DNA of 64,000 nucleotides. Origin: Verrucomicrobiales bacterium (lineage in GTDB: Bacteria > Verrucomicrobiota > Verrucomicrobiia > Verrucomicrobiales > V1-33). The stretch is from positions 11,044-75,043 of the forward strand of contig JAGNEJ010000010.1 in NCBI GenBank assembly GCA_018003315.1. The letters run 5' to 3'. Made by a program: the position numbers and the translations under genes. How positions within the stretch are numbered: the stretch's first letter is position 1; each line of letters starts with the position of its first letter. The notes below the pieces were generated by a model. The model was not told where the DNA came from and did not search any database. It saw only the letters and a list, made by a program, of their open reading frames with translations. This document shows positions 4,147-59,846 of the stretch, piece after piece.

Positions 4147-4541
4147 CCTGGCTGCTCGATGGCAATGTTTTGATTGCGATGGCTGTGGTGGACCACCCGC
4201 ACCGCGCCCGCTGCCTCCGCTGGTTTGCCGGCATTGCATCCTTTGCCACCTGTCCGGTCACCGAGGGAACTTTACTGCGCCTGCACATGCAGTATGCCAG
4301 CGACAAATCCATTGCCGCCGCATGGCGCACCCTCGAAACCTACCACGCCCATCCCCGCCACGTCTCCTGGCAGGAAAATTTTTCCTACGCCGAGATCGAT
4401 CCCACCCGCCTCACCGGCCTCCGCCAGATCACCGATTCCTGGCTGGCCGAACTCGCCCGACGCCAAGGCGGCAGACTCGCCACCCTCGATGCCGCCCTCT
4501 CCGTCCTCTGGCCGGAGTCCGCCGTCCTCATCCCCGTCTAA
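4143..4541 (+). CDS. vapC: PIN-domain toxin VapC
   Basis: 132 aa. Starts MTWLLDGNVLIAM (PIN N-terminal acidic D) and contains ...ITDSWLAELARRQGGRLATLD. Typical VapC size, and it is coupled to the antitoxin gene. Confidence 0.7.
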   Translation: MTWLLDGNVLIAMAVVDHPHRARCLRWFAGIASFATCPVTEGTLLRLHMQYASDKSIAAAWRTLETYHAHPRHVSWQENFSYAEIDPTRLTGLRQITDSWLAELARRQGGRLATLDAALSVLWPESAVLIPV

Positions 4542-4649
4542 TTCCCCCATGCCGCAACCGATTTCACCCCGCCAACAACAAGGATTTCGCCGACCTCGGG
4601 TTTCGCCGCGTTTGGAACCTCTTGCCAGTAGTTGACCCACTCATACCTC

Positions 4650-5831: not shown

Positions 5832-5834
5832 GCC

Positions 5835-7670: not shown

Positions 7671-7702
7671 TCCGTCAGATCTCACACCCCGCTTCCACCG
7701 CC

Positions 7703-8887
7703 ATGTCTCACACCACCCTCATCCACCTCGTCAGCGGCGAGCGCATGCAGAACCTGCTGCCCTTGCTCGCCCTCAAGCCGCGCACCGTTTTCCAGCTTTG
7801 CAGCGATTCCCCGGCCATCCTCGCCGCTGCCGAGCACACCGCCGCTGCCGCCCGCCAGGCCGGCATCGAGGCCGATTTCCGCATCGAAAAACTTCCCGGT
7901 GCCACCCCCACCACCCAGGACGTCCGCCACGCCCACAAGCAGCTCCTCTCCGTCTTCCCCGGCGCGGTTGTCAACATCACCGGCGGCACCAAACTCATGT
8001 CGCTGGGTGCCTACCTCGGTGCCAACGAGTTCCATGATTCCCCCATCCTTTATTGCGACACCGCCAACCGCACCTTCGTCCAGGTCGGCGAAGCCCCCTT
8101 GCCGCCGCACATGAAATCCTTCCCGGAAGTCGCCTCCCTGCTCACCGTGCCCGTCGTCATGGCCGCCCAGGGCAAGCCCTTCCGCGAGGACGCCATCACC
8201 CCGGACCTGCTCGCCTTCGGCTCCGCCGCATGGGATCTCCGCTCACGCGACCACGAATCCATCGCCGCCTGGACCTCCCGCATCCGCAGCGCCGTGCCCC
8301 GCAAAAACGGCCGCGTCGAGAAAAGCAAACCGCTGCTCCGGCGCTTCCTCGCCACCCCGCTGCCCTTCCCGGAGAGCCCCGCCGCCATCGACTACCTCGA
8401 CGCCGCCGTCGCCGCCGGCCTGCTCGCCGTGGATCCCGCCGGCGCCGTCCGCATGATCGCGGATCCCAAACCCTCGTCCGTCGAACGCGTCTCCAACCTC
8501 CTCGATGGCGCATGGCTCGAACTTGCTGTCGCCGCCATGGCTGGAAATGCCACTCGCTACGGCGACCTCCACTGGAGCGTCCAGCCGCCCGACCAGACCG
8601 GGGCCGACTACGGCGAAACCGACCTCATCGCCGTGGATCGCCAAAAACTCAACCTCGCCGTCATCTCCTGCAAAACCAGCACCCAGCACGTCTCCACCCT
8701 CGAACACCTCTCCTCCTGGCGCGACCGCGCCCGCACCCTCGGCGGCTCGCACGCCGCCGGCCACCTCTGCCTGTTCCGCGCCAAATCCTCCGACGAAGCC
8801 GCCCGCCTCCACGCCATGGGCCGCACCATGGGCCTGCACGTCCACATCAGCGCGGAAATCCCCGCCCACTTCGCCGCCACCTCTTAG
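7703..8887 (+). CDS. can2: CARF-PD-(D/E)xK nuclease, Card1/Can2 family (DUF1887-like)
   Basis: N-terminal CARF motifs are LIHLVSGERMQNLLP and NITGGTKLMS. The C-terminal restriction-endonuclease-like core is YGETDLIAVDRQKLNLAVISCKT. Confidence 0.75.
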   Translation: MSHTTLIHLVSGERMQNLLPLLALKPRTVFQLCSDSPAILAAAEHTAAAARQAGIEADFRIEKLPGATPTTQDVRHAHKQLLSVFPGAVVNITGGTKLMSLGAYLGANEFHDSPILYCDTANRTFVQVGEAPLPPHMKSFPEVASLLTVPVVMAAQGKPFREDAITPDLLAFGSAAWDLRSRDHESIAAWTSRIRSAVPRKNGRVEKSKPLLRRFLATPLPFPESPAAIDYLDAAVAAGLLAVDPAGAVRMIADPKPSSVERVSNLLDGAWLELAVAAMAGNATRYGDLHWSVQPPDQTGADYGETDLIAVDRQKLNLAVISCKTSTQHVSTLEHLSSWRDRARTLGGSHAAGHLCLFRAKSSDEAARLHAMGRTMGLHVHISAEIPAHFAATS

Positions 8888-8924
8888 ATCCGTCAGATCT
8901 GTCGGATCATCTCTTCCACCACCC

Positions 8925-9551
8925 ATGCCAACCACCCTCGTTGCTGTCTCCGGCATGTCGCCCGCCATCCTCACCGAAGCCCTCTGGGCCCTCGCCGATG
9001 AGGAAACCGCTACCGTGCCGGACGAGGTCGCCTTCGTCACCACCGTCACCGGTGCTGCTAGGCTGGAGGAGCAACTCTTCACCCCGCGCCCGGAATGGGG
9101 CAGCCTCACGGTTTATGAAAACCTGCGCGCCTCCCTCGGCTCCGCGGACCACCAACTCATCGGCGCCGGCACTCCCCAAATATTCTCCATCAACGACGGC
9201 AGCGCCGACCGCGCCCCCCACCGAAGCCTCACCGGGCATTGGGATGCTTCCAACCTCACCGCCTACCCCACTCCAGCCCTCACGTTCTGGTTCACCACGC
9301 GTTTCCTTGCCGTCATCCCGGTTATTCTGATCGGCCTCATCCTCGTCGCCTCCGCCACCAAACAGTGCCGAATTCAAGTTGGCATCGAAGGCCTCGACAA
9401 TACCATGCGCGACCACCTCCGCCAAGGCACCCTCGGTTTGCACGGGAAATCATCGCTCCCCCCGCTGAACGCCAAACCCTCATCGCGAAACTTTCGCCCG
9501 CCCAGCGCTAACCGAACGCCCGCGTCACGTTTCCTGATGGAATTCGCTTGA
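8925..9551 (+). CDS. Stand-alone CARF-domain protein (NE0113-like); possible ring nuclease, regulator or decayed remnant
   Basis: Starts MPTTLVAVSGMSPAILTEALWAL, matching the Cad1 N-terminal CARF motif. A hydrophobic strand follows, then ASATKQC where the other three CARF proteins have GGxKxMS. About 208 aa with no effector domain. Confidence 0.5.
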   Translation: MPTTLVAVSGMSPAILTEALWALADEETATVPDEVAFVTTVTGAARLEEQLFTPRPEWGSLTVYENLRASLGSADHQLIGAGTPQIFSINDGSADRAPHRSLTGHWDASNLTAYPTPALTFWFTTRFLAVIPVILIGLILVASATKQCRIQVGIEGLDNTMRDHLRQGTLGLHGKSSLPPLNAKPSSRNFRPPSANRTPASRFLMEFA

Positions 9552-17382: not shown

Positions 17383-20300
17383 ATGATGCACACCGTGTCC
17401 TCCCGCGTTGTCTCTGCACTGCTGCTTTCCGCCGGAATTGCCCTGGGCGGTGTGCAGTTCAATCGCGACATCCGCCCGCTGCTTTCCGACAACTGTTTTG
17501 CCTGCCACGGGCCGGATCCAGGCTCGCGCAAGGCCGGACTGCGCCTCGACACCCGTGAGGGTTTTTTTGAAAAGACGGAGAAACGGGGAGCGACCGTGCT
17601 CCCTGGAAATCCAGCGGAGAGTCCACTGTTCCAGCGCCTGACAAATCCGGACCCCGAGGAAGTCATGCCGCCGCCGGAAGCCCACAAGGAATTGAAGCCG
17701 GAACAGACGGCCCTGATCCGGCAATGGATTGCGGAAGGAGCCCCCTGGCAGCCGCATTGGGCTTTCATCAAGCCGGAACGCCCCGCCGTGCCACAGGTGA
17801 AGCAGGGCGGGTGGGTCCGCAATCCGGTCGACGCCTTCATCCTTCGCGATCTGGAGGCCAAGGGACTCGCTCCCGCACCGGAGGCAGACCGACGCACCCT
17901 CGCCCGGCGTCTGGTGCTCGACCTGACTGGACTGCCGCCTGAGCCCGCAGAGGTGGACGCATTGGTCAGCGATGCGGCACCGGATGCCTATGAAAAGTTC
18001 GTGGCTGCACAGATGGCGAAACCGCAATGGGGCGAGCACCGGGGCAGGTACTGGCTAGATGCCGCACGGTATGCGGACACCCACGGCCTGCATTTCGACA
18101 ACTATCGGGAAATCTGGCCCTATCGCGACTGGGTCATCAACGCTTTCAACCGCAATCAGCCGTTTGACCAGTTCACCCGGGAACAACTGGCCGGTGACCT
18201 GCTGCCGAATCCGACTCTGGATCAACTGGTGGCCACCGGCTTTCACCGCTGCAACATCACCACCAATGAAGGCGGCACCATTCCGGAGGAAAACCTCGTT
18301 GGCTATGCCCGCGAACGCACGGAAACCACCTCCTGGGTGTGGCTGGGGCTGACGGCCAACTGCGCCGTGTGCCACGACCACAAGTTCGACCCCGTGACGG
18401 CGAAGGACTTTTACGCCATGAGCGCATTTTTCCGCAACACCACGCAGGCCGCCCTGGACGGCAATGTGAAGGACACCGCACCGGTCTTGCAGGTGCCCGC
18501 CATGGGGGAGGATCGCCTCCGCTGGGCGCAAATTGACCGCGAACTAACCGACGCGAAGACCGCGTTTGAGACAGTGAAAAAGACCGCAGCAAAAGACTTT
18601 GATGCCTGGACCGCAGCGGCCAAGCCGGAGAATCTGGAAGAACATCTGAGCCAGCAGGATCTGGTGACCCGCGTGCCTCTGAACGAAGGAGCCGGGGAGG
18701 AAGTGCGCGCCGCCTGCAGCAGCCCGGCAACGTTCAAGGCAACCGGACAGGTCCTCTGGAAGCCGGACGGAAAAATCGGTCCCGCACCGGTGATGAAAAC
18801 CGGCGCCACCTTTGATCTGGGAAATCTCTGCGATTTCGAAAAGACTCAGGCCTTCAGCTATGGCGCGTGGGTGCGTCCGGGCAAAGCCGGCGTTTTCGGC
18901 GGCATCCTCGCCCGCATGGACCAGGGAAATGACTACCGCGGCTGGGACCTTTTTCAGGATGGCCGAAACTACGCCATGCACCTTGTCAGCAAATGGCCCT
19001 CGGACGCCATCAAGGTCACCACCACGAAAAACCCGATCAAGGAAGGCCGGTGGCAACATGTCTTTGTCACCTACGACGGGTCTGAGCGGGCGGAAGGTGT
19101 TAGGATTTTCGTGGATGGAACCGCGATGGAAACGAAGGTTGAGAGCAACAACCTCCGCAACAGCATTCGGACCACCGTTCCACTGCGCATCGGCCAGCGC
19201 AGCAAGGATCAGGTTTTTGAGGACGGTGCGGTGCAGGATGTCCGGGTTTACTCAAGGCTGCTGCAGCCCGCAGAAATCAAAACCCTGGCCGGGCTGTCCA
19301 CCGCACAGTCAATTCTGGCGGCGGCGCGGGAACAACGCACGCCGCAGCAACGCGAGGCGCTGTTCCATTTTTTCCTGACGGCGGTGCATGAACCCTCCCG
19401 TCAGTCCAGCACCCGCATTGCTGCGCTGGAGAAGGAACAAAGCACCCTGCGCAGCCGCAGCCCGATTGCCTACGTGCAGAAGGAAAATCCGGATGGCATT
19501 CCATCGGCGGCGGTCCTTTTCCGAGGCCAGTACGATCAGCCGCGCGAAAAAGTCACCGCCGGGACTTTTGCGGCCCTGCACCCATTTCCCCAGGACGCAC
19601 CCCACAACCGGCTGGGCTTGGCCGAGTGGATCCTTTCCCCTGACAATCCGCTGACGGCGCGAGTGACGGTCAACCGTTTCTGGCAGGAAGTGTTCGGCGT
19701 CGGGATCGTCCGAACCTCGGAAGACTTCGGCATCATGGGCGAACCGCCCTCAAACCAGGACTTGCTGGACTGGCTGGCGGAGGAATTCCGGGAATCCAAG
19801 TGGGACGTGAAACGGCTGTTCACCCTGTTAGTGACCAGCAGCACCTACCGCCAGAGCGCCTGCACCACGCCGGACAAGCTGGAAAAGGATCCGGCCAACC
19901 GCCTGTTGAGCCGCGGTCCCCGCTTCCGCATGGACGCCGAAATGGTGCGTGACTATGCCCTCAAGGCCTCCGGCCTGCTGATTCCGAAAATCGGCGGCCC
20001 CAGCGTGAAACCCTATCAACCCGACGGGGTGTGGGAAGCCGTGGCGATGCCGGAAAGCAACACTCGGCGCTACCAGCGGGATACGGGTGAAAACCTTTAC
20101 CGACGCAGCCTCTACACCTTCTGGAAGCGCGCCGCTCCGCCAGCCAGCATGGACATCTTCAATGCCACTGCCCGCGAAACAAGCTGTCTGCGGCGGGAAC
20201 GGACGAACACCCCGCTCCAGGCGCTGGTAACCATGAACGATGTGCAATTTGTGGAAGCCGCCCGCGTCCTGGCCCAGAAGGCTCTGCTCGCTGCCCCCTC

Positions 20301-20553
20301 TGACATGGACGCGGGTCTGCAGTTTGTCGCCGCCAGGATCCTCTGCCGCCCGTTTCTCCCAGAAGAATTGAACGTTGTCAGGGAAACGCTCGATCAGCAT
20401 CTCGCCGCCTACCGGGCCGCGCCGGAGGAAGCGGGCAAGCTGATCGCTTACGGCGAATCGAAACCGGATGCCGCACTGGATCCCACGGTGCTGGCCGCGT
20501 GGACCATGGCGGTCAACCAGGTGATGAACCTGGACGAAACGCTCAACAAGTAA
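17383..20553 (+). CDS. PSCyt1/DUF1549/LamG/DUF1553 (PSD1) multidomain protein
   Basis: Signal peptide, then the planctomycete cytochrome-c motif FNRDIRPLLSDNCFACHGPD. DUF1549-like region contains WAFIKPERP...NPVDAFI. The central LamG-like region contains GRWQHVFVTYDG. A long DUF1553-like C-terminus follows. Confidence 0.8.
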   Translation: MMHTVSSRVVSALLLSAGIALGGVQFNRDIRPLLSDNCFACHGPDPGSRKAGLRLDTREGFFEKTEKRGATVLPGNPAESPLFQRLTNPDPEEVMPPPEAHKELKPEQTALIRQWIAEGAPWQPHWAFIKPERPAVPQVKQGGWVRNPVDAFILRDLEAKGLAPAPEADRRTLARRLVLDLTGLPPEPAEVDALVSDAAPDAYEKFVAAQMAKPQWGEHRGRYWLDAARYADTHGLHFDNYREIWPYRDWVINAFNRNQPFDQFTREQLAGDLLPNPTLDQLVATGFHRCNITTNEGGTIPEENLVGYARERTETTSWVWLGLTANCAVCHDHKFDPVTAKDFYAMSAFFRNTTQAALDGNVKDTAPVLQVPAMGEDRLRWAQIDRELTDAKTAFETVKKTAAKDFDAWTAAAKPENLEEHLSQQDLVTRVPLNEGAGEEVRAACSSPATFKATGQVLWKPDGKIGPAPVMKTGATFDLGNLCDFEKTQAFSYGAWVRPGKAGVFGGILARMDQGNDYRGWDLFQDGRNYAMHLVSKWPSDAIKVTTTKNPIKEGRWQHVFVTYDGSERAEGVRIFVDGTAMETKVESNNLRNSIRTTVPLRIGQRSKDQVFEDGAVQDVRVYSRLLQPAEIKTLAGLSTAQSILAAAREQRTPQQREALFHFFLTAVHEPSRQSSTRIAALEKEQSTLRSRSPIAYVQKENPDGIPSAAVLFRGQYDQPREKVTAGTFAALHPFPQDAPHNRLGLAEWILSPDNPLTARVTVNRFWQEVFGVGIVRTSEDFGIMGEPPSNQDLLDWLAEEFRESKWDVKRLFTLLVTSSTYRQSACTTPDKLEKDPANRLLSRGPRFRMDAEMVRDYALKASGLLIPKIGGPSVKPYQPDGVWEAVAMPESNTRRYQRDTGENLYRRSLYTFWKRAAPPASMDIFNATARETSCLRRERTNTPLQALVTMNDVQFVEAARVLAQKALLAAPSDMDAGLQFVAARILCRPFLPEELNVVRETLDQHLAAYRAAPEEAGKLIAYGESKPDAALDPTVLAAWTMAVNQVMNLDETLNK

Positions 20554-28501: not shown

Positions 28502-28624
28502 GCGGGGCAAGATTGCCAAATGAATGCCGTCCCTGTCAATGCATGGTGGCGCGTGCGAACGCGCCGGGAAAATGAAGCTTGGCATCCCCGGCCAGCGGCG
28601 CACAATGCGGCACCTTCATCCGCC

Positions 28625-29818
28625 ATGACTGCACCGCCCAAAGTCCGTTCCGGCCTTGATGTCCTCGCCGCACAACGCTTCGCCCCGCTGGCAGGGAAAG
28701 CCATCGGGCTGGTGACCCACCCCGCAGCGGTGGATGCTCAACTGCGGCACGCCATCGACCTCTTTTCGAGCGCGCCCAAGGTGCGGCTTGCCGCCATTTT
28801 TGGGCCTGAACATGGCCTGGATGGGCAGGCGCAGGATTTGATTTCAGTGAACAGCGGGGAAGCCAAACTGCAGGGCCTCGAAATCCACAGCCTGTATGGG
28901 GAGACTGAAAGCAGCCTCCACCCCAACGCCGAACATCTGCGCGGCCTCGATGCGCTGGTGATCGACATGCAGGACATTTGCAGCCGGTATTACACCTTCC
29001 AGGCAACGATGCTGTACTGCCTGCAGGCAGCGCTTCCGCTCGGAATGCAGGTGCTGGTGCTCGACCGGCCCAATCCACTGGGCGGACTCACCGTGGAGGG
29101 ACCAGCGGTGAGAAAAGGCTTTGAAAGTTTTGTCAGTGTGCACAACCTCGCCACCCGTCACGGGCTGACCATGGGTGAACTGGCGCTGCTTTACGAGAAG
29201 GAACTGGGGCTGGACCGTGGGGAGTTGCGCATCATTCCCTGCGAAGGATGGAAACGGGGCGATTGCTTCGATGCCACCGGACTGCCCTGGGTTCTTCCTT
29301 CCCCTAACATGCCCACGCTGGACACGGCGGTCGTTTACCCCGGCCAGTGCCTGCTGGAAGGGACCAATCTCAGCGAAGGCCGTGGAACCACCCGCCCGTT
29401 CGAAATCTGCGGAGCCCCCTGGATTGATGCCGCGAAACTGGCGCAGCACATGAATGCACAAAAACTTCCAGGAGTGCATTTTCGCCCTGTCTGGTTTCGC
29501 CCCACCTTTCAGAAACATGCCGGCAAGGATTGCGGCGGCGTGCAGTTGCATGTCACCAGCCGTTCGGATTTTCAGCCGGTCCGCTCCAGTCTGGCCCTGC
29601 TGGCTGCATTCATAGAAATGTCAGGAAAACATTTCGCCTGGCGCACGGAAATCTATGAATTTGTCCGCGACCCCATCGCGATCGATCTGCTGTTTGGGTC
29701 TGCGAGGGAGCGCACGCTGCTCGATGCGGGCAGCCCGTGGCGCAACGCTCTGCCGCAGTGGGAGAAGGAGGAGGAAGCATTCAGGCACCGGCGGCATCAG
29801 ATTCTGCTCTACGATTGA
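28625..29818 (+). CDS. namZ: DUF1343 family exo-beta-N-acetylmuramidase (NamZ-like)
   Basis: Motifs GLVTHPAAVD and LAAIFGPEHGLDGQAQD. Start chosen at ATG 28625 (MTAPPK). Confidence 0.7.
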   Translation: MTAPPKVRSGLDVLAAQRFAPLAGKAIGLVTHPAAVDAQLRHAIDLFSSAPKVRLAAIFGPEHGLDGQAQDLISVNSGEAKLQGLEIHSLYGETESSLHPNAEHLRGLDALVIDMQDICSRYYTFQATMLYCLQAALPLGMQVLVLDRPNPLGGLTVEGPAVRKGFESFVSVHNLATRHGLTMGELALLYEKELGLDRGELRIIPCEGWKRGDCFDATGLPWVLPSPNMPTLDTAVVYPGQCLLEGTNLSEGRGTTRPFEICGAPWIDAAKLAQHMNAQKLPGVHFRPVWFRPTFQKHAGKDCGGVQLHVTSRSDFQPVRSSLALLAAFIEMSGKHFAWRTEIYEFVRDPIAIDLLFGSARERTLLDAGSPWRNALPQWEKEEEAFRHRRHQILLYD

Positions 29819-30679
29819 TGCGCTTCGAATGGCCTGTCTGGATCCCAAATGTGCTGCCGAAAGCGGTTCTTTGCGCCGTCGATCCCTGGTGCCAGGATGC
29901 TTCGGGGTTGGACCGGCCAGCAGGTCGTAACCGCGGGCGAAAAACCCTGTCATGCTCCCCGCTTTGTCATCGGCGAAATGGAGCCTGCCCGTCAGGGTAA
30001 CCTGGTCCCCCACGCCGAAGAGTCGGATGGGTGCCATCTGGGCGGGCGAGACCGTCTTGGCATTCTTCGAAGACTTTGCCTCCTTGGGCTGCGGATACTT
30101 GATCAGCGTTCTGTTTTCGATCCGCAATTTTTGTTTGGATCCACCCCAGACTGCCTCATGGCTTCCGGCGGAAAGGCACAGGCCTCCTTCCAGTTCCACG
30201 ATGATCGTCTCCAGACTGCTCTCCCGGAAACTGGAAATCTGGACCACCTTTCCCCTGACCTTGGCAATGGTGCCGCCGCCTGGCGACGGTACCGGAATGC
30301 CCATTCGGTAAACTTGGCTCGCCGCGATGGAAGAAAGTGAAGCCACTGGCTTGTTCGCCTTTTTGACCGCCGCAGCGCCCTTCGTTGAGAGGGCTGCCAG
30401 TTTGTCGCTTACCTCCTTTTTAAGCATTTTTCCGATCCGCGCCTTTTCCCCAGCCAGATATTGCTGATCCGTTTCGGAAAGAAAATTCACCGAAGTCGCG
30501 ACATCCTTTCCGGATTGGAGGCGCAGCGTGATCTCGGAGCCTTGCTGCTTGACCAGCCGCGCACGTATTTCCTTTCCATCCTGGCTTCTCCACTCGCGCA
30601 CTGGCCAGGGCAGCGACTCTGCGCCGACGCTGCCCAATGCCGGCAAAACATACGTCAGGACTTTCCAAAACAACCGCAT
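29621..30679 (-). CDS. Secreted SHD1-domain protein
   Basis: Signal peptide MRLFWKVLTYVLPALGSVGA, then an SLA1-homology-like motif WRSQDGKEIRARLVKQQGSEITLRL...FLSETDQQYL. The 3' approximately 198 nt overlap the namZ 3' end convergently, so the true C-terminus is uncertain. Confidence 0.5.
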   Translation of the reverse strand: MRLFWKVLTYVLPALGSVGAESLPWPVREWRSQDGKEIRARLVKQQGSEITLRLQSGKDVATSVNFLSETDQQYLAGEKARIGKMLKKEVSDKLAALSTKGAAAVKKANKPVASLSSIAASQVYRMGIPVPSPGGGTIAKVRGKVVQISSFRESSLETIIVELEGGLCLSAGSHEAVWGGSKQKLRIENRTLIKYPQPKEAKSSKNAKTVSPAQMAPIRLFGVGDQVTLTGRLHFADDKAGSMTGFFARGYDLLAGPTPKHPGTRDRRRKEPLSAAHLGSRQAIRSASIVEQNLMPPVPECFLLLLPLRQSVAPRAARIEQRALPRRPKQQIDRDGVADKFIDFRAPGEMFS

Positions 30680-30709: not shown

Positions 30710-31249
30710 TCAAGCCTTGTCCGCAATGGCATTGGACCTGATGAATCCCAGGAAATCCGGAATGTCGCCGGAATGGCGGCTTTCAAACCGGTTCACGATC
30801 TCCCCATGGTTCAGCAAAAAAGCCCCGGCGAGTTGCCGTACGTCCGCCCGGATTTTCCCCTGACGGTGCCCGCGGAGGAAGGCCCGTGTGCCCCGGACGA
30901 TGACCTGCCAGCCCAACAGTTGCCGCCACCGTCCGCGCTGCAGTCCCAGTGCGGCATGGTGCCTCCCGTCGGCATCCTCAACGCCACCGACTCCTTCCAG
31001 GCCGTGCCTCTGCAATGTCCGGCGAAAGCATTCGGGCTCGCGGTCAAGGTGCAGAAGCACGATGCGGATGCCGCGGGATTCGATTTCCTTCCGCTGTTTC
31101 CCCAACTGGGACAGCATTTCAGAGGTAAAGATTCAGCCTGGATGCCGCAGGCACACCAGGAGAACCGGTGCGGCAACACTTGCCTCCGCAAGACTGCCCC
31201 CGCCCGGCAGCAGAATGTTGGACAGGACGGAATGCGCGGAGGGAATCAC
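30710..31249 (-). CDS. Peroxiredoxin-like (AhpC/TSA_2, PRXL2/SelU-like) protein with in-frame TGA: candidate selenoprotein
   Basis: Reading upstream of the 30710..31117 ORF in the same frame gives V-IPSAHSVLSNILLPGGGSLAEASVAAPVLLVCLRHPG-[TGA 31133-31135]-IFTSEMLSQLGK... The TGA sits where homologs have the redox Cys (LRHxGCxxC). The GTG start at 31247-31249 overlaps the sorB stop (GTGA). A hairpin lies 18 nt after the TGA. Confidence 0.55.
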
Positions 31250-31608
31250 TGCTTTCCGTAGGCAGCCGTTAGGTAATCCACCAGTGGCTGAATGTCTGCG
31301 GGCAATGGGGCGGCGTATTTGTCCTTCATCTTTTTCACGGTGGCCTCCCAGAATTTCCGGGGCATGGGCGGCTGCATGGAGACGTAGTCGGCGGAATGGC
31401 AGTTCATGCAGAACGCCGCTGCGAGTTCCGCATTTTTCCCTGGTCGGTAGGCAGCGGTTTCGGCGGGGAGTTCGATGGTGACCGTCTGCGCGATGCCGGC
31501 GGTGAGGGCGGCCAGGGCCGTCGCAAAAATCAGGACGAATTTCAACGGAGGTTTCACGGGAAATTTTTTGTTATTCGGTGGACGTGACATGGACGGTTTC
31601 GACGACAT
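31246..31608 (-). CDS. sorB: Monoheme cytochrome c subunit of sulfite dehydrogenase (SorB-like)
   Basis: TM/signal segment, then the heme motif CMNCH. Directly downstream of sorA. The exact start is uncertain because it overlaps the sorA end. Confidence 0.65.
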   Translation of the reverse strand: MSSKPSMSRPPNNKKFPVKPPLKFVLIFATALAALTAGIAQTVTIELPAETAAYRPGKNAELAAAFCMNCHSADYVSMQPPMPRKFWEATVKKMKDKYAAPLPADIQPLVDYLTAAYGKQ

Positions 31609-32782
31609 TGCGCATGTAGCCGGCGGGGTTCCAGAGCGGCTCCATGGGCTGGGATTCGCCGAGGCGGTTGAAGGCGCGGCATTGCAGAGCGTGAGATTTC
31701 ACTCCGGCCGGCGGGTTCCATGACAGCGTCCACTCGCGGAAGGAATAGCGGCCCTCGTCCCTGCCGAGTGCGGCGGCCTGCCAGTGCCTGCCCCCGTCGG
31801 CAGAGACTTGGACCTCGGTAATGCCCTCGCCGCTGTCGAAGGCAATGCCGCGCAGGGTGAGCGGCACGCCGGATTTCACGGTCGATCCATCGGTTAGGCT
31901 GGTCAGGAAGGACCGGATTTTGAATTTGGTGATGGGGATGGTGGAGGATGGCGTGGCACCCGGCTCCACGCATCCGCCGGGCGTGGCAGGGATGCGGTAG
32001 CCTGCGCTCATGAAGAATCCGTCGAACGTCTCCGGGACCACGGTGAGGCTGCTGAGGTGCTTGATCCAGTAGGTGCCGAAATAGCCCGGCACCACGAGAC
32101 GCAGCGGGAACCCATTGAGCACGGGCAGCGGTTCTCCGTTCATTTCCCATGCCACCAGGACGTCGGGGCTGCGGGCGAGATCCATTTCCAGAGCCTTGAT
32201 GAAATCCGGAGTTCCCTCGATCACCGCCCGGTCCAAACCATCACACACCACTTGCCGCGCCCCGGCCTTCACCCCGGCTTTGTCCAGAATGTCCTTGAGC
32301 CGGACGCCTTTCCATCGGGCGTTTCCCATGGCTCCATGGCCGAGCTGGCCTCCGCCGACCCGCGGCAGGAAAAAGCCCCGACTGTTGCCGGAGCATTGGT
32401 TTACCGCGGTGATTTCCACGGCTTCAAATTGCGCCTTCAAGTCGGCAGGTGACAACTCCAGTTCCCTGTTCACCAAGCCGGTCACCTTCAGCCGGTGCGC
32501 CGCGGGATCAATGCTCAGCGGAATGTTCGAGAGGTGGTAGCGCACGAAGAACGCGTCGTTGGGGGTGATGATGCCTTCATTGAAAACGGAGAAGGGAGTC
32601 TCCAACTGCGGCGGACGCGCGGTGAGGAGGATCAGGGATCGTTTCTGAGGATACTTGGCGAGGGTGCGCTCCCCGTTTTCAAACGGCAGTCGGACCGTTT
32701 CCGCTCCCGCCTGCCCCGCTCCTGCGGCTGCCGCCATGGTCAGGGTTTTGAGAAAACTGCGCCTTGTGGAAAAATCGTTCAT
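31571..32782 (-). CDS. sorA: Molybdopterin sulfite dehydrogenase catalytic subunit (sulfite oxidase family, SorA-like)
   Basis: TAT signal STRRSFLKTLTMAAAAGAG. The Mo-ligand Cys motif is NQCSGNSRG, and a Moco dimerisation-type C-terminus is present. Confidence 0.8.
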   Translation of the reverse strand: MNDFSTRRSFLKTLTMAAAAGAGQAGAETVRLPFENGERTLAKYPQKRSLILLTARPPQLETPFSVFNEGIITPNDAFFVRYHLSNIPLSIDPAAHRLKVTGLVNRELELSPADLKAQFEAVEITAVNQCSGNSRGFFLPRVGGGQLGHGAMGNARWKGVRLKDILDKAGVKAGARQVVCDGLDRAVIEGTPDFIKALEMDLARSPDVLVAWEMNGEPLPVLNGFPLRLVVPGYFGTYWIKHLSSLTVVPETFDGFFMSAGYRIPATPGGCVEPGATPSSTIPITKFKIRSFLTSLTDGSTVKSGVPLTLRGIAFDSGEGITEVQVSADGGRHWQAAALGRDEGRYSFREWTLSWNPPAGVKSHALQCRAFNRLGESQPMEPLWNPAGYMRNVVETVHVTSTE

Positions 32783-32884
32783 GAACTCATTTTCAGCAGA
32801 TCAGCATTTTTGTAAAGCGCTGGTGCATGGAGCGGCAATCCTGCGTGTCCACTCTGCCGTTGCCTCCCATGCCGCGGACGGCCA

Positions 32885-49109: not shown

Positions 49110-50135
49110 ATGAAGATCCAGGGACTTGGGAAAAATTCACATGGGCTTTACTGGTTTCGACCCAGCCGCAAGGGACTGCCGGCCGGGACGCGGCCGAAGC
49201 CGATCAACCTCGGCACCCGCGACGAAGACGAAGCGATTGCCAAGGTGCTGGATTTGCGGAATCAAGGAACCCTGGCCCCGGCCGGGCAGCAGACGATCCA
49301 GCAATTGGTTGATGCCTACATGGCGGCGAAGACCGCATCAAGGAAGCATCGGCAGAAAACGACACAAAGTATGAAGCAGCGGCTGCACCATTTTGCCAAA
49401 TGGTTTGCCGGCCGTGCAGTTCGGGAATTGACCAGGGCCGACATCCAACGATGGTATGCCGGATGCGCCAACGGCCGCCGCAGCAATTCGACGTTGCATC
49501 AGTTTTATCGCTACGTCCGCGCCTTCCTGAACTGGTTGGTGGAGATGCGGATCATCCGCGAAAATCCCGCGAGCCGGCTGGCGGTGCCTGCGCCAAGCCA
49601 GTCGCGCCGGGAGCTTTTTTGCACGACGGCACAACGGGATGCCATCGTCAATGCATGTGTCCGGGATGATCTGCGATTCGTCCTTCTGGCGGGATTTTTC
49701 ATGGGCCTGCGCATCAATGAAATCGTCAACTGCCGGTGGAGTTGGTTCTCGTCGGATTTGTCGGTCTGCACGGTGCAAAATTCCGCTGGATTCACGACGA
49801 AAAGCGGCCGGGAGCGCACGATGCCGGTGCATTCCAAAGTGAGGGAATTTTTGCAGCGCCAGCCGCGGGGTGACGGCTATATCCTGGCTCCAAAGAAGGT
49901 GCAGGGGAAGAATTGGCTGCGCTGGGATCCCGTGGTGCCGTTCAAACTGCTGGTGAGGGAATGCGGTCTGCCGTGGGTGAGTTTCCATGTCATGCGGCAC
50001 ACGTTCGGGAGCCTGCACGCGATGGCCGGAACCCCGGAAATCAAAATCCGCCGGTGGATGGGAATCACGCAGGCGACATGGGAGCGGCATTATGCGGGGC
50101 TTGCTCCCGATGATGCGGCCATCGAGGCGATTTAG
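49110..50135 (+). CDS. int: Tyrosine recombinase / phage integrase
   Basis: SAM-like N-terminal region. The catalytic C-terminus is ...GLRINEI...HVMRHTFGSLHAMAG...ATWERHYAGL (R..HxxR..Y pattern). Confidence 0.85.
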   Translation: MKIQGLGKNSHGLYWFRPSRKGLPAGTRPKPINLGTRDEDEAIAKVLDLRNQGTLAPAGQQTIQQLVDAYMAAKTASRKHRQKTTQSMKQRLHHFAKWFAGRAVRELTRADIQRWYAGCANGRRSNSTLHQFYRYVRAFLNWLVEMRIIRENPASRLAVPAPSQSRRELFCTTAQRDAIVNACVRDDLRFVLLAGFFMGLRINEIVNCRWSWFSSDLSVCTVQNSAGFTTKSGRERTMPVHSKVREFLQRQPRGDGYILAPKKVQGKNWLRWDPVVPFKLLVRECGLPWVSFHVMRHTFGSLHAMAGTPEIKIRRWMGITQATWERHYAGLAPDDAAIEAI

Positions 50136-50797
50136 CGCCGCCCTGTAAACCGGTCCCAATGCTCCTGATTTCGGCGCATGGCGGCTTCACGGTTTCTCTC
50201 CAAATCGTCCAATTGATGATTCGGCTCAGAACGACGCATGATTTCGAGCATTTCCCGTTGCTGCTCAATGATTTCCTTCTGCTGTTCACGAATGGCATTT
50301 TGTGATTGTGCCACGGCTTGCCTTTCCCGCTCCAAATACGCACGGGCATCCAATTCTGCGGCGGCCTGCGCCTTCTGCCTCCGCTCAGCCGCTCGGCGCT
50401 CCTGGCTTGCCGCCAGAGATTTGCGGATCTGATCGGCGAAGCGGAGTTCGTCTTTTCGATCTTCAAGACGGCGTTTTTCTTCTTCTTCTTCTTCTTCTGC
50501 TTTCTGTGATTGCTCCCCTGATTGCATGGGCTCAATTTGGTCGGAGAGAGCAACGACTGCCGGAGGCTCCGCAACAACGTGGACGGATTGCATGGACTCG
50601 ATTCCCTCGATGGTGGCGCCAACATCACGGGCAGCCGGATCCGACTTTTCAGACAAACTGGACACTTCAAGCCGGGGAATTGATACAGGCGCTTGCCATC
50701 GGACCGGAATCTTTGGGGCGAACAACGATGGGATGATCCCGACCATGGCCAAGGCAGCCACTCCCGGCCAGATGATCCAAGCGAGTGATACTTTCAT
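50132..50797 (-). CDS. Membrane-anchored coiled-coil protein (phage, function unknown)
   Basis: Start chosen at MKVSLAWIIWPGVAALAMVGIIPSLF (TM). A Glu run encoded by (CTT)n at about 50477-50497 follows, then a charged coiled coil. Confidence 0.45.
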   Translation of the reverse strand: MKVSLAWIIWPGVAALAMVGIIPSLFAPKIPVRWQAPVSIPRLEVSSLSEKSDPAARDVGATIEGIESMQSVHVVAEPPAVVALSDQIEPMQSGEQSQKAEEEEEEEKRRLEDRKDELRFADQIRKSLAASQERRAAERRQKAQAAAELDARAYLERERQAVAQSQNAIREQQKEIIEQQREMLEIMRRSEPNHQLDDLERNREAAMRRNQEHWDRFTGRR

Positions 50798-50852
50798 GCC
50801 TGCGCTAATACAGGTCTTATTAGCGCGGATCAACGCTATTTTTGACAGTTGT

Positions 50853-52967
50853 TCACGCTTCCAAATCCCCATTCTGCATCCGCTCCAGTCCGAGGCGCCG
50901 GACAACGTGCTCGAAATACTGGCCTTTGACACCCTCTCCTGACTGCACAATTCCAAGCAGCGTTGAATCGATCCTGGCCTGCTCATCGTCTGACAACCGG
51001 GACCATGGAAGCGTCAGGGTGTAGTAGTCCCTGACGACGGCGATGGCCTGGCCGGCGGATGCGAGTGATTGCTCGGCCTTGTATTTGCTCAGCGTGACTC
51101 TGGCGTTGTATTTGAGCGCCTTCACATCCCTCGCGGCCACGGTCAATTCGACTGGAACGTCACCGTCGAGGTAGATGAAGGTTTCCTCGTCGTCCAGGTG
51201 CTTGTAGAGGCATTGAACGAAGGCGTGGGAAGCGGCATTTAGTCCTGTTTCTAGGCTGCTGATGAAGACGGCGAACATTTCCATGCCGGACTTTTCGATA
51301 TTCTTGATGCCGGTTGCCAATTTGGCTGAATCCATGCCTGCGACGTAGTTGTCGTTTGCGTGCTGGACTCCGGATTCGTTCATCGCGAGTTGGAGGAAGA
51401 ATTGCAGTTCGTCGGTCAGATTGTCGTATTTGTTATCGTCGAGATAGACGACATTGATGATGTCCTCGGGGGTTTTTCCTTCCCTCGGCGTGTAGGTCTT
51501 CCCCCAATTCAGGATCAGGTTTGGGTTGGCGTCCCCCTCGACGGTGTTCTGCGGCCGCCAGAGTGTCACCCTGCCGCTTTCGCTTTGCGCCCTGTTTCGT
51601 CGGTTCACGAGCAGATCAACTGTTGATTGATAGGACTCGAACAATTCGATTGCTCCCTGTCCATACCATCGATTCAGGACCGGCTTGGCGCGGACGATCT
51701 GGAACGGCCTCAGTCCGTCGTCGGTGACTGCTGCGGTGTAGTCGTAGAAGATCGGGGTTTTGCTGGCCAGGTCCATGACCAGCATGATGTCCTCCATGTA
51801 TCCGTCTCCATCGGCATCGTAGCGCAGATAGAATTCGCCGATGGTCATGACCGGATCGGGCGTTTCCGGTTCGGTGGTTTCTCCGAGTTCCGGGCGCATC
51901 GCATCGAACGAGCGGCGGGTTGATTCCTGGTTCAGCGCATTGCGGATTGCTTCGACGGCGGCTTTCAGTTCATCCATGGATTCGCCTGGGCTGGTCATGT
52001 AGTCGGCGGCGAGTTGATTGGCGCTGTAATCCATGACATGGCAGATGCAGTCGGCTGATTGGATGTCGGTGGCATTCAGCGGGCAGAGAAAATCCCGGAA
52101 GTAGACGATTTTCGGGTCTGGTCCCTGGTAGTGGATGATTTCCTCATCGATCATCGTTTCTTGGAATTGGAGCATGGGGGGCATTTCCGTTGTGCCGTCC
52201 CGTTTGAGGATTTTCGATCCCCCTGGGTTGTTTGGGTCTGCCGGGATCCATTCATCATCCTGTCGGATGGGCTGGCCATCCGATGCGGTGAGGGGAAGTC
52301 CGTTTCCATCGACGGCGACGGTTTCCTTGTGGCGGTAGAATGATGCTTTGCGAGTGGTGGTTGTTTTGATGATGGCTTCGCCGATTTCAAATGCGATCGG
52401 GATGGCCGACTGGATGCGCGACTGGTTTTCGTTTTCGTCGAGTTTTGCCTGCACGAGATTGTTGAGGGTCTTCGCCATGGTGATGTCATTCAGGCCAACG
52501 TGTTCGACGGCCAGCCATGGGTTTGTGCCGAAGAAGTAATTGCCTGCGCGGGCCGCCATTTGCCGGCAGATTCTCCGGCAGAGTGGAACCACGAGATTGC
52601 TTTTGGCAAAGATGCTGTTTTTCATGAGCAGGGGGCGCCACGAGAAGTCATTTTCTGCGATGTGCTGGTAAAGCAGTCGCTTCGCCATGAACAGACGCTC
52701 TTCTTTTTTCTCATCGGTGCGTTGGTTGAGGAAAAGCGCCGTTCCGTCAATGTCGGTGCGGGTTTGTTCGCGGCCTAATTCCTCATCGAGTTGCTGGAAG
52801 CGATTTGCTGCACGCAGGCATAATGCGTCTTCCTGCGCCCTGGTCAGATGCAGGTTTGATGGAAACACCTTCCGTGGCTTGTCGGGGCCGGGCGGTGGGA
52901 GTTTTTCATAGATTTCGTCGATAAGCTCGGCGCTGTCTCCGATGGTGATGTCAGGCTCTTTGTGCAT
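50853..52967 (-). CDS. Putative phage portal protein
   Basis: 704 aa, acidic. Its size and composition resemble podovirus or N4-like portals, and it sits in an element that also carries scaffold-like and capsid-like genes. No Walker A motif, so terminase is unlikely. Not verified by any search. Confidence 0.45.
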   Translation of the reverse strand: MHKEPDITIGDSAELIDEIYEKLPPPGPDKPRKVFPSNLHLTRAQEDALCLRAANRFQQLDEELGREQTRTDIDGTALFLNQRTDEKKEERLFMAKRLLYQHIAENDFSWRPLLMKNSIFAKSNLVVPLCRRICRQMAARAGNYFFGTNPWLAVEHVGLNDITMAKTLNNLVQAKLDENENQSRIQSAIPIAFEIGEAIIKTTTTRKASFYRHKETVAVDGNGLPLTASDGQPIRQDDEWIPADPNNPGGSKILKRDGTTEMPPMLQFQETMIDEEIIHYQGPDPKIVYFRDFLCPLNATDIQSADCICHVMDYSANQLAADYMTSPGESMDELKAAVEAIRNALNQESTRRSFDAMRPELGETTEPETPDPVMTIGEFYLRYDADGDGYMEDIMLVMDLASKTPIFYDYTAAVTDDGLRPFQIVRAKPVLNRWYGQGAIELFESYQSTVDLLVNRRNRAQSESGRVTLWRPQNTVEGDANPNLILNWGKTYTPREGKTPEDIINVVYLDDNKYDNLTDELQFFLQLAMNESGVQHANDNYVAGMDSAKLATGIKNIEKSGMEMFAVFISSLETGLNAASHAFVQCLYKHLDDEETFIYLDGDVPVELTVAARDVKALKYNARVTLSKYKAEQSLASAGQAIAVVRDYYTLTLPWSRLSDDEQARIDSTLLGIVQSGEGVKGQYFEHVVRRLGLERMQNGDLEA

Positions 52968-53002
52968 TTGCGTTTTGGGTAAATAAGGGCTGATTAGGGC
53001 TT

Positions 53003-53410
53003 ATGAAGCGTGGTTCGTTCGTCGATTTGATGCGTGGTGTCCGGGAAAAATCCGGCATGTCGCTCGCTGATGTTGGGAAGTCCGCTGGGATTTCCCGCGG
53101 TGCTGTCTGGCGCATGGAGACTTCCGGGTATCCCCTCCCTCGTGGTCGCACGCTGGAGCGGGTTCTCCGTTATGGATACGGGCTGGACGCCACCGATGGG
53201 ATTTATGTCAGCATCGTTTCCCGTTGGACACAGGAACGGCTTGGTTCGTCGGTGCATCCGCGCATTCCGCAGGGCCGTGCAGCCGTCATCGAACGCATTG
53301 CCGGGCTGTCCCGCAGTCATTTTTTGACTCTGGCTGCGCTTTCCAGTGATCCTGGATTGCTTGATCTGGTATCGGCGATGGTCCGGGCTCATCGTAGGGC
53401 GGCGGTGTAA
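53003..53410 (+). CDS. XRE-family helix-turn-helix transcriptional regulator (phage repressor-like)
   Basis: HTH segment is GMSLADVGKSAGISRGAVWRMETSG. Divergent from the portal-like gene with only 35 bp between them. Confidence 0.65.
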   Translation: MKRGSFVDLMRGVREKSGMSLADVGKSAGISRGAVWRMETSGYPLPRGRTLERVLRYGYGLDATDGIYVSIVSRWTQERLGSSVHPRIPQGRAAVIERIAGLSRSHFLTLAALSSDPGLLDLVSAMVRAHRRAAV

Positions 53411-56661: not shown

Positions 56662-56671
56662 TATTTTGCAG

Positions 56672-56688
56672 TTGCAAGTTGCTTGCAA
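56672..56688. promoter_or_regulatory. Palindromic operator candidate in a 45-bp divergent intergenic region
   Basis: TTGCAAG-TTG-CTTGCAA is a perfect 7-bp inverted repeat. It lies between the start of paralog A (56661, minus strand) and the scaffold-like gene (56707, plus strand). Confidence 0.35.
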
Positions 56689-56706
56689 CACGCGAGTGTA
56701 TCCACA

Positions 56707-59359: not shown

Positions 59360-59429
59360 TTCGCGGGGCGGGCGGGGGTGAAAATCTCCGCCCGCCTCTT
59401 CTTTCCATCCCCATTTGGAGGAACAGCCC

Positions 59430-59843: not shown

Positions 59844-59846
59844 TCA

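What the first reader, a model, noticed from the sequence alone, without database searches (positions are those of the whole stretch)
30710..31249. In-frame TGA at the redox-Cys position of a peroxiredoxin-like gene: candidate selenoprotein coupled to sorAB
The annotated ORF (30710..31117) begins right after the thioredoxin-fold active site would be. Reading upstream in the same frame gives a continuous sequence, ...APVLLVCLRHPG-TGA-IFTSEMLSQLGKQ..., back to a GTG at 31247-31249 that overlaps the sorB stop (GTGA). The TGA (31133-31135) aligns with the first Cys of the LRHxGCxxC motif of AhpC/TSA_2 (PRXL2/SelU-like) proteins. That would give a U-x-x-T redox motif. In the mRNA, 18 nt after the UGA, there is a stem-loop CUGUCCC-AGUU-GGGGAAACAG (plus-strand 31094-31114). 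A G occupies the second apical-loop position, and the loop starts about 25 nt after the UGA. This fits the bacterial SECIS model. A Sec-containing redoxin co-transcribed with sulfite dehydrogenase would be an interesting redox partner.
Basis: partly seen in the sequence, partly recalled or inferred. Interest (0 to 1): 0.65.

Follow-up and report, generated by a model that had tools for sequence, protein, structure and literature searches.

The report
Selenocysteine redoxin gene after sorAB
A small thioredoxin-fold redox gene just after the sulfite dehydrogenase genes very probably uses its internal TGA to insert selenocysteine, as many overlooked relatives do, so it is an ordinary mis-annotated member of a known selenoprotein family and not a new system.

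Summary
On the minus strand, 31249..30710 is one open frame broken only by TGA 31135..31133. Its GTG start overlaps the sorB stop (GTGA). The read-through product matches NCBIfam NF040769, "SelL-related redox protein", at E 9e-28 across the TGA. The TGA sits on the invariant first Cys of the LRHxG-C-xF motif. The closest homologue has LRHPG-C-IFTS there. All five truncated-looking homologues I checked carry TGA in that column. So do about 104 family genes from many phyla, two of them with the same U-I-F-T motif. Sec forms carry a covarying hairpin. Its AGUU loop starts 25 nt after UGA in 71/104 Sec forms and 0/110 Cys forms. The window has this same loop and register and meets all four published bSECIS constraints. 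The main gap is that selA/B/C/D could not be looked for in the rest of this Verrucomicrobiales genome. The proposed partnership with SorAB is not supported. None of 80 other sorAB loci has this gene. The redoxin also shows no export signal, whereas SorA and SorB do. Verdict: probable selenoprotein (about 0.8), a new member of a known kind.

The parts
30710..31249 (-). Whole proposed selenoprotein gene: 179 sense codons including one UGA (Sec) codon, plus the terminal stop. It is a SelL-related / PRX-like2 thioredoxin-fold redoxin.
   Evidence: translation. (NF040769, E 9.3e-28, residues 20-166). (alignment A2).
31247..31249 (-). GTG start codon overlapping the sorB stop codon (GTGA, 31249-31246). 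A weak GGA Shine-Dalgarno-like stretch lies 5-10 nt upstream.
   Evidence: No other ATG/GTG/TTG occurs in this frame upstream of the family-homologous region. The assignment as start codon is inferred.
31136..31246 (-). N-terminal coding segment (codons 2-38) that current gene calls omit. It contains beta-strand 1 and the LRHPG lead-in to the active site.
   Evidence: it aligns with the family consensus ...pvLLVFLRHxG; public gene calls start at ATG 31117.
31133..31135 (-). In-frame UGA, proposed selenocysteine codon (U39), in the motif U-I-F-T.
   Evidence: the column is an invariant Cys in homologues. TGA is in the same column in 5 of 5 checked 'truncated' homologues and in about 104 GTDB species representatives.
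31093..31115 (-). bSECIS-type stem-loop: GCUGUCCC / AGUU(G) / GGGG-AA-ACAGC.
   Evidence: local MFE -10.5 kcal/mol. It meets the four bSECIS constraints quoted in PMC13188914.
31104..31107 (-). Apical tetraloop AGUU (nt 29-32 counting the U of UGA as 1), encoded by Gln-Leu (CAG UUG) at +9/+10.
   Evidence: AGUU is at this position in 71/104 Sec forms and 0/110 Cys forms. QL occurs at +9/+10 in 70/104 Sec forms against 1/110 Cys forms.
30710..31132 (-). C-terminal coding segment with its stop. The annotated 135-aa ORF (30710-31117) lies inside it.
   Evidence: 627 homologues at E<=1e-3.
31246..31608 (-). sorB, the c-type cytochrome subunit of sulfite dehydrogenase. It is the upstream neighbour and has an N-terminal hydrophobic signal or anchor.
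   Evidence: NF052246 SorB, 100.6 bits, above the cut-off of 93.
31571..32782 (-). sorA, the molybdopterin subunit, with a twin-arginine motif (STRRSFLK).
   Evidence: Oxidored_molyb 1.1e-50, Mo-co_dimer, weak TAT_signal.
32789..32816 (-). Sigma-70-like promoter match just upstream of sorA. It is a candidate operon promoter, based on a consensus match only.
29621..30679 (-). Downstream 352-aa ORF of unknown function with an N-terminal signal-like segment, 30 nt after the redoxin stop. It may belong to the same transcription unit.
   Evidence: no family match. (no terminator-like site between the genes).

Best explanation
The gene at 31249..30710 (minus strand) encodes a 179-residue cytoplasmic thioredoxin-fold redoxin. 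It belongs to the SelL-related / PRX-like2 (AhpC/TSA_2) group. Codon 39, UGA, is decoded as selenocysteine. Shown: the frame, the family homology on both sides of the UGA, the UGA lying in the catalytic Cys column, TGA recurring in that column across phyla, and a hairpin in the family's SECIS register. Inferred: translation starts at the GTG that overlaps the sorB stop, so the gene is probably read from the sorAB transcript. Also inferred: when the ribosome reaches UGA, the hairpin 18-40 nt downstream (AGUU loop, 25 nt after UGA) recruits SelB-GTP-Sec-tRNASec, and Sec is inserted in place of termination. Also inferred: in the protein, Sec39 sits at the start of helix 1 after beta-strand 1 (LRHPG-U-IFT) and acts as the attacking nucleophile on a peroxide, disulfide or similar oxidised substrate. 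The motif is U-x-x-T with no resolving Cys. The selenenic acid or selenenylsulfide intermediate must therefore be resolved by an outside thiol (thioredoxin or a low-molecular-weight thiol), or possibly by Cys72. A Cys at that position is shared with the closest C-x-x-T homologue. The position next to sorAB is specific to this lineage and does not by itself indicate a shared pathway.
For: Frame and TGA. Family: NF040769 at E 9.3e-28 across the TGA, and all 24 aligned relatives hit NF040769. The nearest solved structure for the family profile is PRXL2B, 9us9, whose LRRFGCVVCR aligns to the motif. Cys column: alignment A2 has R35, G38, C39, F41, H67 and G142 invariant, and the window keeps all of them. 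The closest homologue, P0002/L087 (44% identity), reads LRHPG-C(TGC)-IFTS. TGA recurrence: all five 'truncated' hits checked at DNA level have TGA in that column, from Armatimonadota, Fimbriimonadaceae, a TARA ocean sample and others. They include Verrucomicrobiota (L146, L188) and two U-I-F-T forms (L212, L180). SECIS: the loop starts exactly 25 nt after UGA in 65/104 Sec forms. AGUU occupies nt 29-32 in 71/104 Sec forms and 0/110 Cys forms. 'G in the first two loop nt plus at least 4 closing bp' is found in 74/104 Sec forms and 0/110 Cys forms, and the window has both features. Its local MFE is -10.5, against a Sec median of -11.1 and a Cys median of -5.7. The helix covaries: 74% of cells paired against 58% in shuffles (0/500 shuffles reach it), and 63 against 25 double-sided changes. 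Synonymous resampling gives the feature in 8% of draws and an MFE this low in 4.4%. All four bSECIS constraints from PMC13188914 are met. Standard genetic code: TGA ends 44 of 61 window ORFs. Stability: TGA is unchanged in contigs from at least 8 metagenome runs of several studies and in a strain variant. That variant differs by 2 synonymous changes and one V-to-I change in this gene.
Against: No Sec machinery was seen. There is no tRNA-Sec and no SelD-like ORF in the window. No sel-gene Pfam family appears among the called genes of the flanks fetched beyond the window's ends. The rest of the genome could not be reached. The 60-nt downstream fold (-13.3 kcal/mol) is weaker than in 93% of Sec forms and no better than shuffles. 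The family covariance model scores the site only 12.1 bits, E 1.6 window-wide. The protein scores below the curated cut-offs: 97 against 120 bits for NF040769, and 17.4 against 27 bits for PF13911. It departs from the family's common SDP...LY stretch (EDA...HH). The gene is absent next to sorAB in relatives, and its nearest homologue is only 44% identical, so recent acquisition is possible. SNP density against the strain variant is somewhat higher than in sorAB: 3 in 540 nt against 1 in about 1300 nt. Metatranscriptome contigs cover pieces of sorA and sorB but not this gene, which is uninformative at that depth.
Confidence: 0.8

Rival explanations
1. Pseudogene: an ordinary Cys-form redoxin whose TGC/TGT active-site codon mutated to TGA by a single base change. 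Translation then ends after 38 residues and the gene is dead.
For: Cys to stop is one substitution. The closest homologue has TGC there. No Sec machinery was seen. Family scores are below cut-off and the gene diverges at the SDP/LY stretch. The gene is specific to this lineage. SNP density is slightly raised.
Against: A Cys-form gene should not carry the family's SECIS. AGUU at nt 29-32 with a closing stem occurs in 0 of 110 Cys forms but in the window. Gln-Leu at +9/+10 occurs in 1 of 110 Cys forms. There is no second lesion in 179 codons, and all six invariant residues are kept. The strain variant's changes are 2 synonymous and 1 conservative.
Confidence: 0.08
2. Relic or stranded selenoprotein gene: a true Sec-form gene, with its SECIS, that sits in a genome without working Sec machinery. 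This could follow recent horizontal acquisition or recent loss of selABC. The gene would currently not be expressed as a full-length protein.
For: The gene has no counterpart in related sorAB loci and no close relative in GTDB representatives, which fits recent acquisition. The machinery is unverified. There is no RNA coverage in sparse metatranscriptomes.
Against: The frame and SECIS are intact. The sequence is identical or near-identical in samples from 2020-2024. The start overlaps the sorB stop neatly, which suggests integration into an operon and not a fresh insertion. Sec forms of this family occur in other Verrucomicrobiota (L146, L188), so the trait exists in the phylum.
Confidence: 0.09
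3. The gene is as annotated: a 135-aa protein starting at ATG 31117. The upstream open frame and the TGA are then incidental.
For: This is how public gene callers read it.
Against: The upstream 38 codons are homologous to the family N-terminus, including beta-strand 1 and the LRHxG motif. A product starting at Met45 would lack the active site and the first strand of the fold. The same 'truncation' in five relatives is in every case an in-frame TGA.
Confidence: 0.02

Closest known systems
NCBIfam NF040769, 'SelL-related redox protein' (bacterial relatives of animal selenoprotein L, within the AhpC/TSA_2 / PRX-like2 group)
   Same: It is the best and only NCBIfam hit (E 9.3e-28, residues 20-166). 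The LRHxG-[C/U]-xF motif and the invariant His and Gly are shared. All 24 aligned relatives hit this model. Many members carry TGA at the first redox position.
   Different: The score of 97 bits is below the curated cut-off of 120. The fourth motif position is Thr, not the usual Cys. The SDP...LY stretch is altered. The genomic position after sorB is unique.
[quoted passage not shown]
   Same: It has the same fold group (PRX-like2), with Sec at the first position of a U-x-x-[S/T/C] motif. It was predicted by Cys/Sec pairing plus a bSECIS.
   Different: I could not retrieve the review's example sequence (MDX2448127.1). Identity of that clade with this one is therefore inferred and not shown. 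The window has UxxT.
PRXL2B, prostamide/prostaglandin F synthase (PDB 9us9). From my own knowledge, the vertebrate PRXL2/SelU and SelL proteins also belong here.
   Same: It is the nearest solved structure for the family profile (E 4.9e-9). Its LRRFG-C-VVC-R aligns to LRHxG-C-xFC-R. It has a thioredoxin-like fold with an N-terminal nucleophile.
   Different: It is a eukaryotic enzyme with a CxxC motif and a known lipid endoperoxide substrate. Sequence identity is low, and no substrate can be transferred to the bacterial protein.
General bacterial SECIS model (bSECISearch constraints as summarised in PMC13188914) and the E. coli fdhF SECIS
   Same: The hairpin lies inside the coding region just after UGA. 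It has a 4-5 nt apical loop with G then U at loop positions 2-3, at least a 4-bp upper stem, 25-nt spacing (allowed range 16-37) and an MFE of -10.5 (limit -7.5).
   Different: The sequence is unrelated to fdhF. Here the loop is a family-specific AGUU encoded by Gln-Leu. SelB binding was not tested.

Membership tests
Bacterial selenoprotein gene (UGA-Sec with bSECIS) | In-frame UGA aligned with a catalytic Cys of Cys-containing homologues | tested here: met
   the TGA column is an invariant Cys. The closest homologue has TGC in LRHPG-C-IFTS.
Bacterial selenoprotein gene (UGA-Sec with bSECIS) | Independent homologues in other organisms with TGA in the same column | tested here: met
   (5 of 5 truncated hits). 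(104 GTDB species representatives from many phyla).
Bacterial selenoprotein gene (UGA-Sec with bSECIS) | Downstream hairpin meeting the bSECIS constraints: loop of 3-9 nt, upper stem of 4-16 bp, G in the first two loop nt, 16-37 nt from UGA, MFE <= -7.5 | tested here: met
   loop AGUU(G), 4 bp then 5 bp after a bulge, 25 nt spacing, -10.5 kcal/mol. The constraints are quoted from PMC13188914.
Bacterial selenoprotein gene (UGA-Sec with bSECIS) | Hairpin in the same register and with the same loop as in Sec-form relatives, and absent from Cys-form relatives | tested here: met
   AGUU in 71/104 Sec forms and 0/110 Cys forms. Covariation exceeds all 500 shuffles and all slid controls.
Bacterial selenoprotein gene (UGA-Sec with bSECIS) | selA, selB, selC (tRNA-Sec) and selD in the same genome | not testable with these tools
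   No tRNA-Sec and no SelD-like ORF were found in the window. No sel-gene Pfam family appears among the called genes of the fetched flanks. The rest of the genome (MAG GCA_963204945.1 and others) could not be read. The species is not in the GTDB representative collection.
Bacterial selenoprotein gene (UGA-Sec with bSECIS) | Selenium actually incorporated into the protein | not testable with these tools
   This needs 75Se labelling or mass spectrometry.
NCBIfam NF040769 SelL-related redox protein | Whole-protein score at or above the curated cut-off (120 bits) | tested here: not met
   97 bits, E 9.3e-28, with Cys as placeholder for Sec. It is best treated as a divergent relative at the edge of the family.
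NCBIfam NF040769 SelL-related redox protein | Conserved LRHxG-[C/U]-xF active-site block and the invariant His67 and Gly142 | tested here: met
NCBIfam NF040769 SelL-related redox protein | Thioredoxin-like fold | not tested
   No model was built, because the read-through sequence is not accepted by the structure tool. Only the family profile's match to PRXL2B and ResA is available.
Pfam PF13911 AhpC/TSA_2 | Gathering score of 27 bits | tested here: not met
   17.4 bits, E 0.006, C-terminal half only. Several homologues do pass.
Accessory or partner gene of the SorAB sulfite dehydrogenase operon | Conserved co-occurrence with sorAB | tested here: not met
   no homologue in 80 sorAB loci; in the two closest relatives a convergent unrelated gene follows sorB.
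Accessory or partner gene of the SorAB sulfite dehydrogenase operon | Co-transcription and same cellular compartment | tested here: inconclusive
   There is a 4-nt overlap with sorB and no terminator-like site. RNA contigs are too sparse to judge. By eye, SorA and SorB have export signals and the redoxin has none.

The most novel reading that the evidence does not exclude
The Sec-redoxin was recruited into the sorAB operon for a sulfite-linked task. One example would be reducing S-sulfonated (R-S-SO3-) or otherwise sulfite-damaged thiols in the cytoplasm while SorAB removes sulfite in the periplasm. The U-x-x-T (1-Sec) chemistry and the Cys72 shared with the closest C-x-x-T homologue would then be adaptations to that substrate.
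Probability: 0.07. Interest if true: 0.55.

Novelty: new member of a known kind. Interest (0 to 1): 0.3.

Why it matters
The gene is currently annotated as a 135-aa hypothetical protein that lacks its active site, and the correct product is a 179-aa selenoprotein. The same mis-call affects many relatives. Two of them are deposited as truncated 'hypothetical' or 'AhpC/TSA family' proteins (MBS1714581.1, MEQ1822399.1). At least 104 species representatives carry the TGA form. The family-wide comparison also gives a simple diagnostic for Sec forms of this family: an AGUU tetraloop 25 nt after UGA, encoded by Gln-Leu. It also shows how an RNA signal constrains the protein sequence. If the Sec machinery is confirmed, this would document selenocysteine use in a wastewater Verrucomicrobiales lineage. 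It does not reveal a new mechanism or a new link between selenium and sulfite oxidation.

Tried and rejected
1. A word-indexed protein search and a scan of GTDB genomes with the read-through protein found nothing beyond the window's own gene. Only the exhaustive HMMER search reached the family.
3. I looked for the gene next to sorAB elsewhere, and it was absent from all 80 loci.
4. Rfam has no matching SECIS or other RNA family here, even at E<=10.
5. A family alignment was too diverse for the search for related loci, so I used degenerate DNA patterns instead.
6. A covariance model of the family hairpin is too short to be significant over the whole window. The site ranks 26th, E 1.6. I rely on the register-specific comparison instead.
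Rfam at gathering threshold found no tRNA-Sec in the window. The two flanks fetched later were checked only through the Pfam families of their called genes, none of which is a sel-gene family. I found no way to reach the rest of this genome or a Verrucomicrobial sel-gene probe.
8. Population variation at the TGA: none in four DNA runs.
9. Metatranscriptomes were too sparse to be informative.
10. A scan of the window for a second TGA-interrupted coding-like gene found none convincing.
11. The script machine was lost. A planned GC3 and hydropathy calculation was replaced by reading the sequences directly.
12. An alternative genetic code (TGA as a sense codon) was rejected, because TGA ends 44 of 61 ORFs.

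Full report
**The observation.** On the minus strand, the frame from GTG 31249-31247 to the stop at 30712-30710 is open except for one TGA at 31135-31133. The protein reads VIPSAHSVLSNILLPGGGSLAEASVAAPVLLVCLRHPG-*-IFTSEMLSQLGKQRKEIE.... The GTG overlaps the sorB stop (GTGA). No other ATG, GTG or TTG lies in this frame upstream of the homologous region. Public gene calls start at ATG 31117 and give a 135-aa 'hypothetical protein'. It is GCUGUCCC / AGUU(G) / GGGG-AA-ACAGC, and the loop starts 25 nt after the UGA.

**The protein.** With Cys as a placeholder, the read-through product matches NCBIfam NF040769, 'SelL-related redox protein'. The match has E 9.3e-28 over residues 20-166, so it runs across the TGA. 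Its 97 bits are below the curated cut-off of 120. Pfam AhpC/TSA_2 is only weak, at 17.4 bits. An exhaustive HMMER search with the 135-aa part found 627 homologues. The full-length ones carry ...LLVFLRHxG-C-xFCRE.... In an alignment of 24 sequences, R35, G38, C39, F41, H67 and G142 are invariant, and the window's TGA is the C39 column. The closest homologue (44% identity) reads LRHPG-C-IFTS with a TGC codon, the same motif with Cys. All 24 aligned sequences hit NF040769. The nearest solved structure for the profile is PRXL2B, prostamide/prostaglandin F synthase (9us9), whose LRRFGCVVCR aligns to the motif.

**Whether TGA in this column is a family habit.** About one in eight of the best hits looked cut off right after the motif. 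I fetched DNA for five such hits. These were L088/L089 (Armatimonadota), L090, L091/L092, L093 (a TARA ocean sample) and L094/L095 (Fimbriimonadaceae). Every one has an in-frame TGA in exactly this column, with a homologous N-terminal piece upstream (LRHFG-*-MFCRE, LRHMG-*-MFCHE, LRHLG-*-TFCRE, LRHGG-*-VFSRE, LRHFG-*-IFCRQ). Of these loci, 104 encode full-length family members (E<=1e-15 against the alignment HMM). They come from Acidobacteriota, Planctomycetota, Chloroflexota, Myxococcota, Desulfobacterota, Actinomycetota, Armatimonadota and Verrucomicrobiota (L146, L188). The fourth motif position varies in Sec forms: C mostly, but also S, T, A, P and H. L212 (Planctomycetota) and L180 read U-I-F-T, as in the window. 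A 2026 review lists a cd02970 'peroxiredoxin-like (AhpC/TSA)' family with UxxS among confidently predicted prokaryotic selenoproteins (PMC13188914). Sec use in this fold group is therefore known.

**The SECIS.** Taken alone, the window's hairpin is unimpressive. Over 71 nt, z is +0.92 against shuffles. The 60-nt fold of -13.3 kcal/mol is weaker than in 93% of Sec forms. The family comparison changes the picture. I compared 104 Sec-form genes with 110 Cys-form genes fetched with the matching TGY pattern.
- In Sec forms the apical loop starts exactly 25 nt after UGA in 65 of 104. The median loop is 4 nt, and 87.5% have G in the first two loop positions. Cys forms are scattered.
- Nucleotides 29-32 are AGUU in 71/104 Sec forms and 0/110 Cys forms.
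- 'G in the first two loop nt plus at least 4 consecutive closing pairs' holds in 74/104 Sec forms and 0/110 Cys forms.
- The residues at +9/+10 are Gln-Leu (CAG UUG) in 70/104 Sec forms and 1/110 Cys forms.
- The window has AGUU at nt 29-32, four closing pairs followed by five more after an AA bulge, and Gln-Leu encoded CAG UUG. Its local MFE is -10.5, against a Sec median of -11.1 and a Cys median of -5.7.

On 64 non-redundant Sec-form segments the six-pair helix covaries. It is 74% paired against 58% in shuffles, with 63 against 25 double-sided changes. None of 500 shuffles reaches these values, and all slid controls are lower. The window forms five of those six pairs, read directly from the sequence. 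TTG is only 13% of Leu codons in the window. Resampling synonymous codons gives the feature in 8% of draws and an MFE this low in 4.4%. A covariance model built from the family finds the window site in the exact register, but at 12.1 bits and E 1.6 over the window. That means roughly 2 in 10,000 positions score as well, which is meaningful only because the position was fixed in advance. The hairpin meets all four published bSECIS constraints. Rfam has no model that matches.

**Pseudogene or selenoprotein.** A Cys-to-stop mutation in a Cys-form gene would not bring with it the family's SECIS loop and the Gln-Leu pair, which no Cys form shows together. The gene has no other lesion and keeps every invariant residue. 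TGA is the normal stop in this genome (44 of 61 ORFs), so an altered genetic code is not the explanation. The sequence is identical in contigs from six samples, and the TGA does not vary in four further runs. A strain variant (L096) keeps the TGA and differs in this gene by two synonymous changes and one V-to-I change. Its SNP density is somewhat higher than in sorAB, at 3 in 540 nt against 1 in about 1300 nt. That difference is not significant.

**The untested point.** The window has no tRNA-Sec and no SelD-like ORF. No sel-gene Pfam family appears among the called genes of the flanks fetched beyond the window's ends. The species is not in the GTDB representative collection, and I found no route to the rest of the MAG. 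A stranded Sec gene in a genome without working machinery therefore remains possible.

**Context.** The organism is a Verrucomicrobiales bacterium from wastewater, bioreactor and biofilm metagenomes. The upstream genes are sorA (molybdopterin subunit with a twin-arginine motif) and sorB (NF052246, above its cut-off). A promoter-like match lies just before sorA, and no terminator-like site separates sorB, the redoxin and the following 352-aa ORF. Co-transcription is therefore likely, but it is inferred. Metatranscriptome contigs cover only pieces of sorA and sorB and settle nothing. None of 80 other sorAB loci contains a homologue. In the two closest relatives (SorA 77-80% identical), an unrelated convergent gene follows sorB directly. 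Homologues elsewhere sit in unrelated neighbourhoods, next to pirin, lipid-modifying genes, an LPG synthase or a short-chain dehydrogenase. By eye, SorA and SorB have export signals and the redoxin has none. A direct redox partnership is thus not supported.

**Mechanism.** Shown: the frame, the homology, the Cys/Sec column, TGA recurrence and the SECIS register. Inferred: SelB-dependent Sec insertion at codon 39. Sec would act as the attacking nucleophile at the start of helix 1 of a thioredoxin-like fold. Because the motif is U-x-x-T, the oxidised intermediate would be resolved by an outside thiol or perhaps by Cys72. The closest C-x-x-T homologue also has a Cys at that position, but L212 does not. 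The substrate is unknown.

**Verdict.** This is a probable selenoprotein gene (about 0.8). It is a divergent new member of a known Sec/Cys redoxin family and is mis-annotated as a truncated ORF. The sorAB linkage is a lineage-specific adjacency.

Noticed in passing
window 1-9000 (ORFs 2819-3709, 4632-5831, 5835-7670) and locus L336 1-13797: This is a type III-B CRISPR-Cas locus. L336 has Cmr2/Cas10, Cmr3, RAMPs and Cmr5 just left of the window. Ancillary genes follow: a Csm6-HEPN-like protein, a CARF (Cas_NE0113) plus adenosine deaminase fusion of 611 aa (Cad1-like), a Card1-like CARF protein and a PIN protein.
   Followed up: partly
window 49110-64000 and locus L338: This is a prophage-like region. 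It has a tyrosine integrase (49110-50135), an SU10-type portal (50853-52967) and a run of small same-strand ORFs without family matches. The run continues beyond the window's right end.
   Followed up: partly
window 29614-29908 (inside ORF 29621-30679, minus strand): Against strain variant L096, 10 SNPs fall within 84 nt (29825-29908). This is just past the stop of the convergent namZ gene (28520-29818) and inside the C-terminal third of the 352-aa ORF. The other ~2.9 kb has 8 differences in all. The ORF stays open in both strains, and its last ~200 nt overlap namZ. Either the ORF's tail is not really coding, or it is a hypervariable segment.
   Followed up: no
loci L088, L094 and proteins P0104, P0068: Sec-form relatives are deposited as truncated proteins (MBS1714581.1 'hypothetical protein', MEQ1822399.1 'AhpC/TSA family protein'). 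In several contigs the N-terminal piece is called as a separate 35-38-aa ORF ending at the TGA (L091, L092, L095).
   Followed up: yes
loci L097-L216 (Sec forms) versus L217-L335 (Cys forms): In this family the SECIS apical loop AGUU is encoded by Gln-Leu (CAG UUG) nine and ten codons after Sec. Cys forms have Asp/Glu-Leu/Ile there instead. The RNA signal appears to dictate two residues of helix 1.
   Followed up: yes
proteins P0006, P0009, P0010 and many hits of 300-345 aa: About half of the best homologues are fusions. The redoxin domain follows an N-terminal segment of roughly 140-190 residues, which looks like a multi-pass membrane domain in the three sequences read.
   Followed up: no
window 17383-20553: This is a 1056-aa protein with PSCyt1, PSCyt2 (DUF1549), Laminin_G_3 and PSD1 (DUF1553) domains. 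That architecture is typical of Planctomycetota and Verrucomicrobiota.
   Followed up: no
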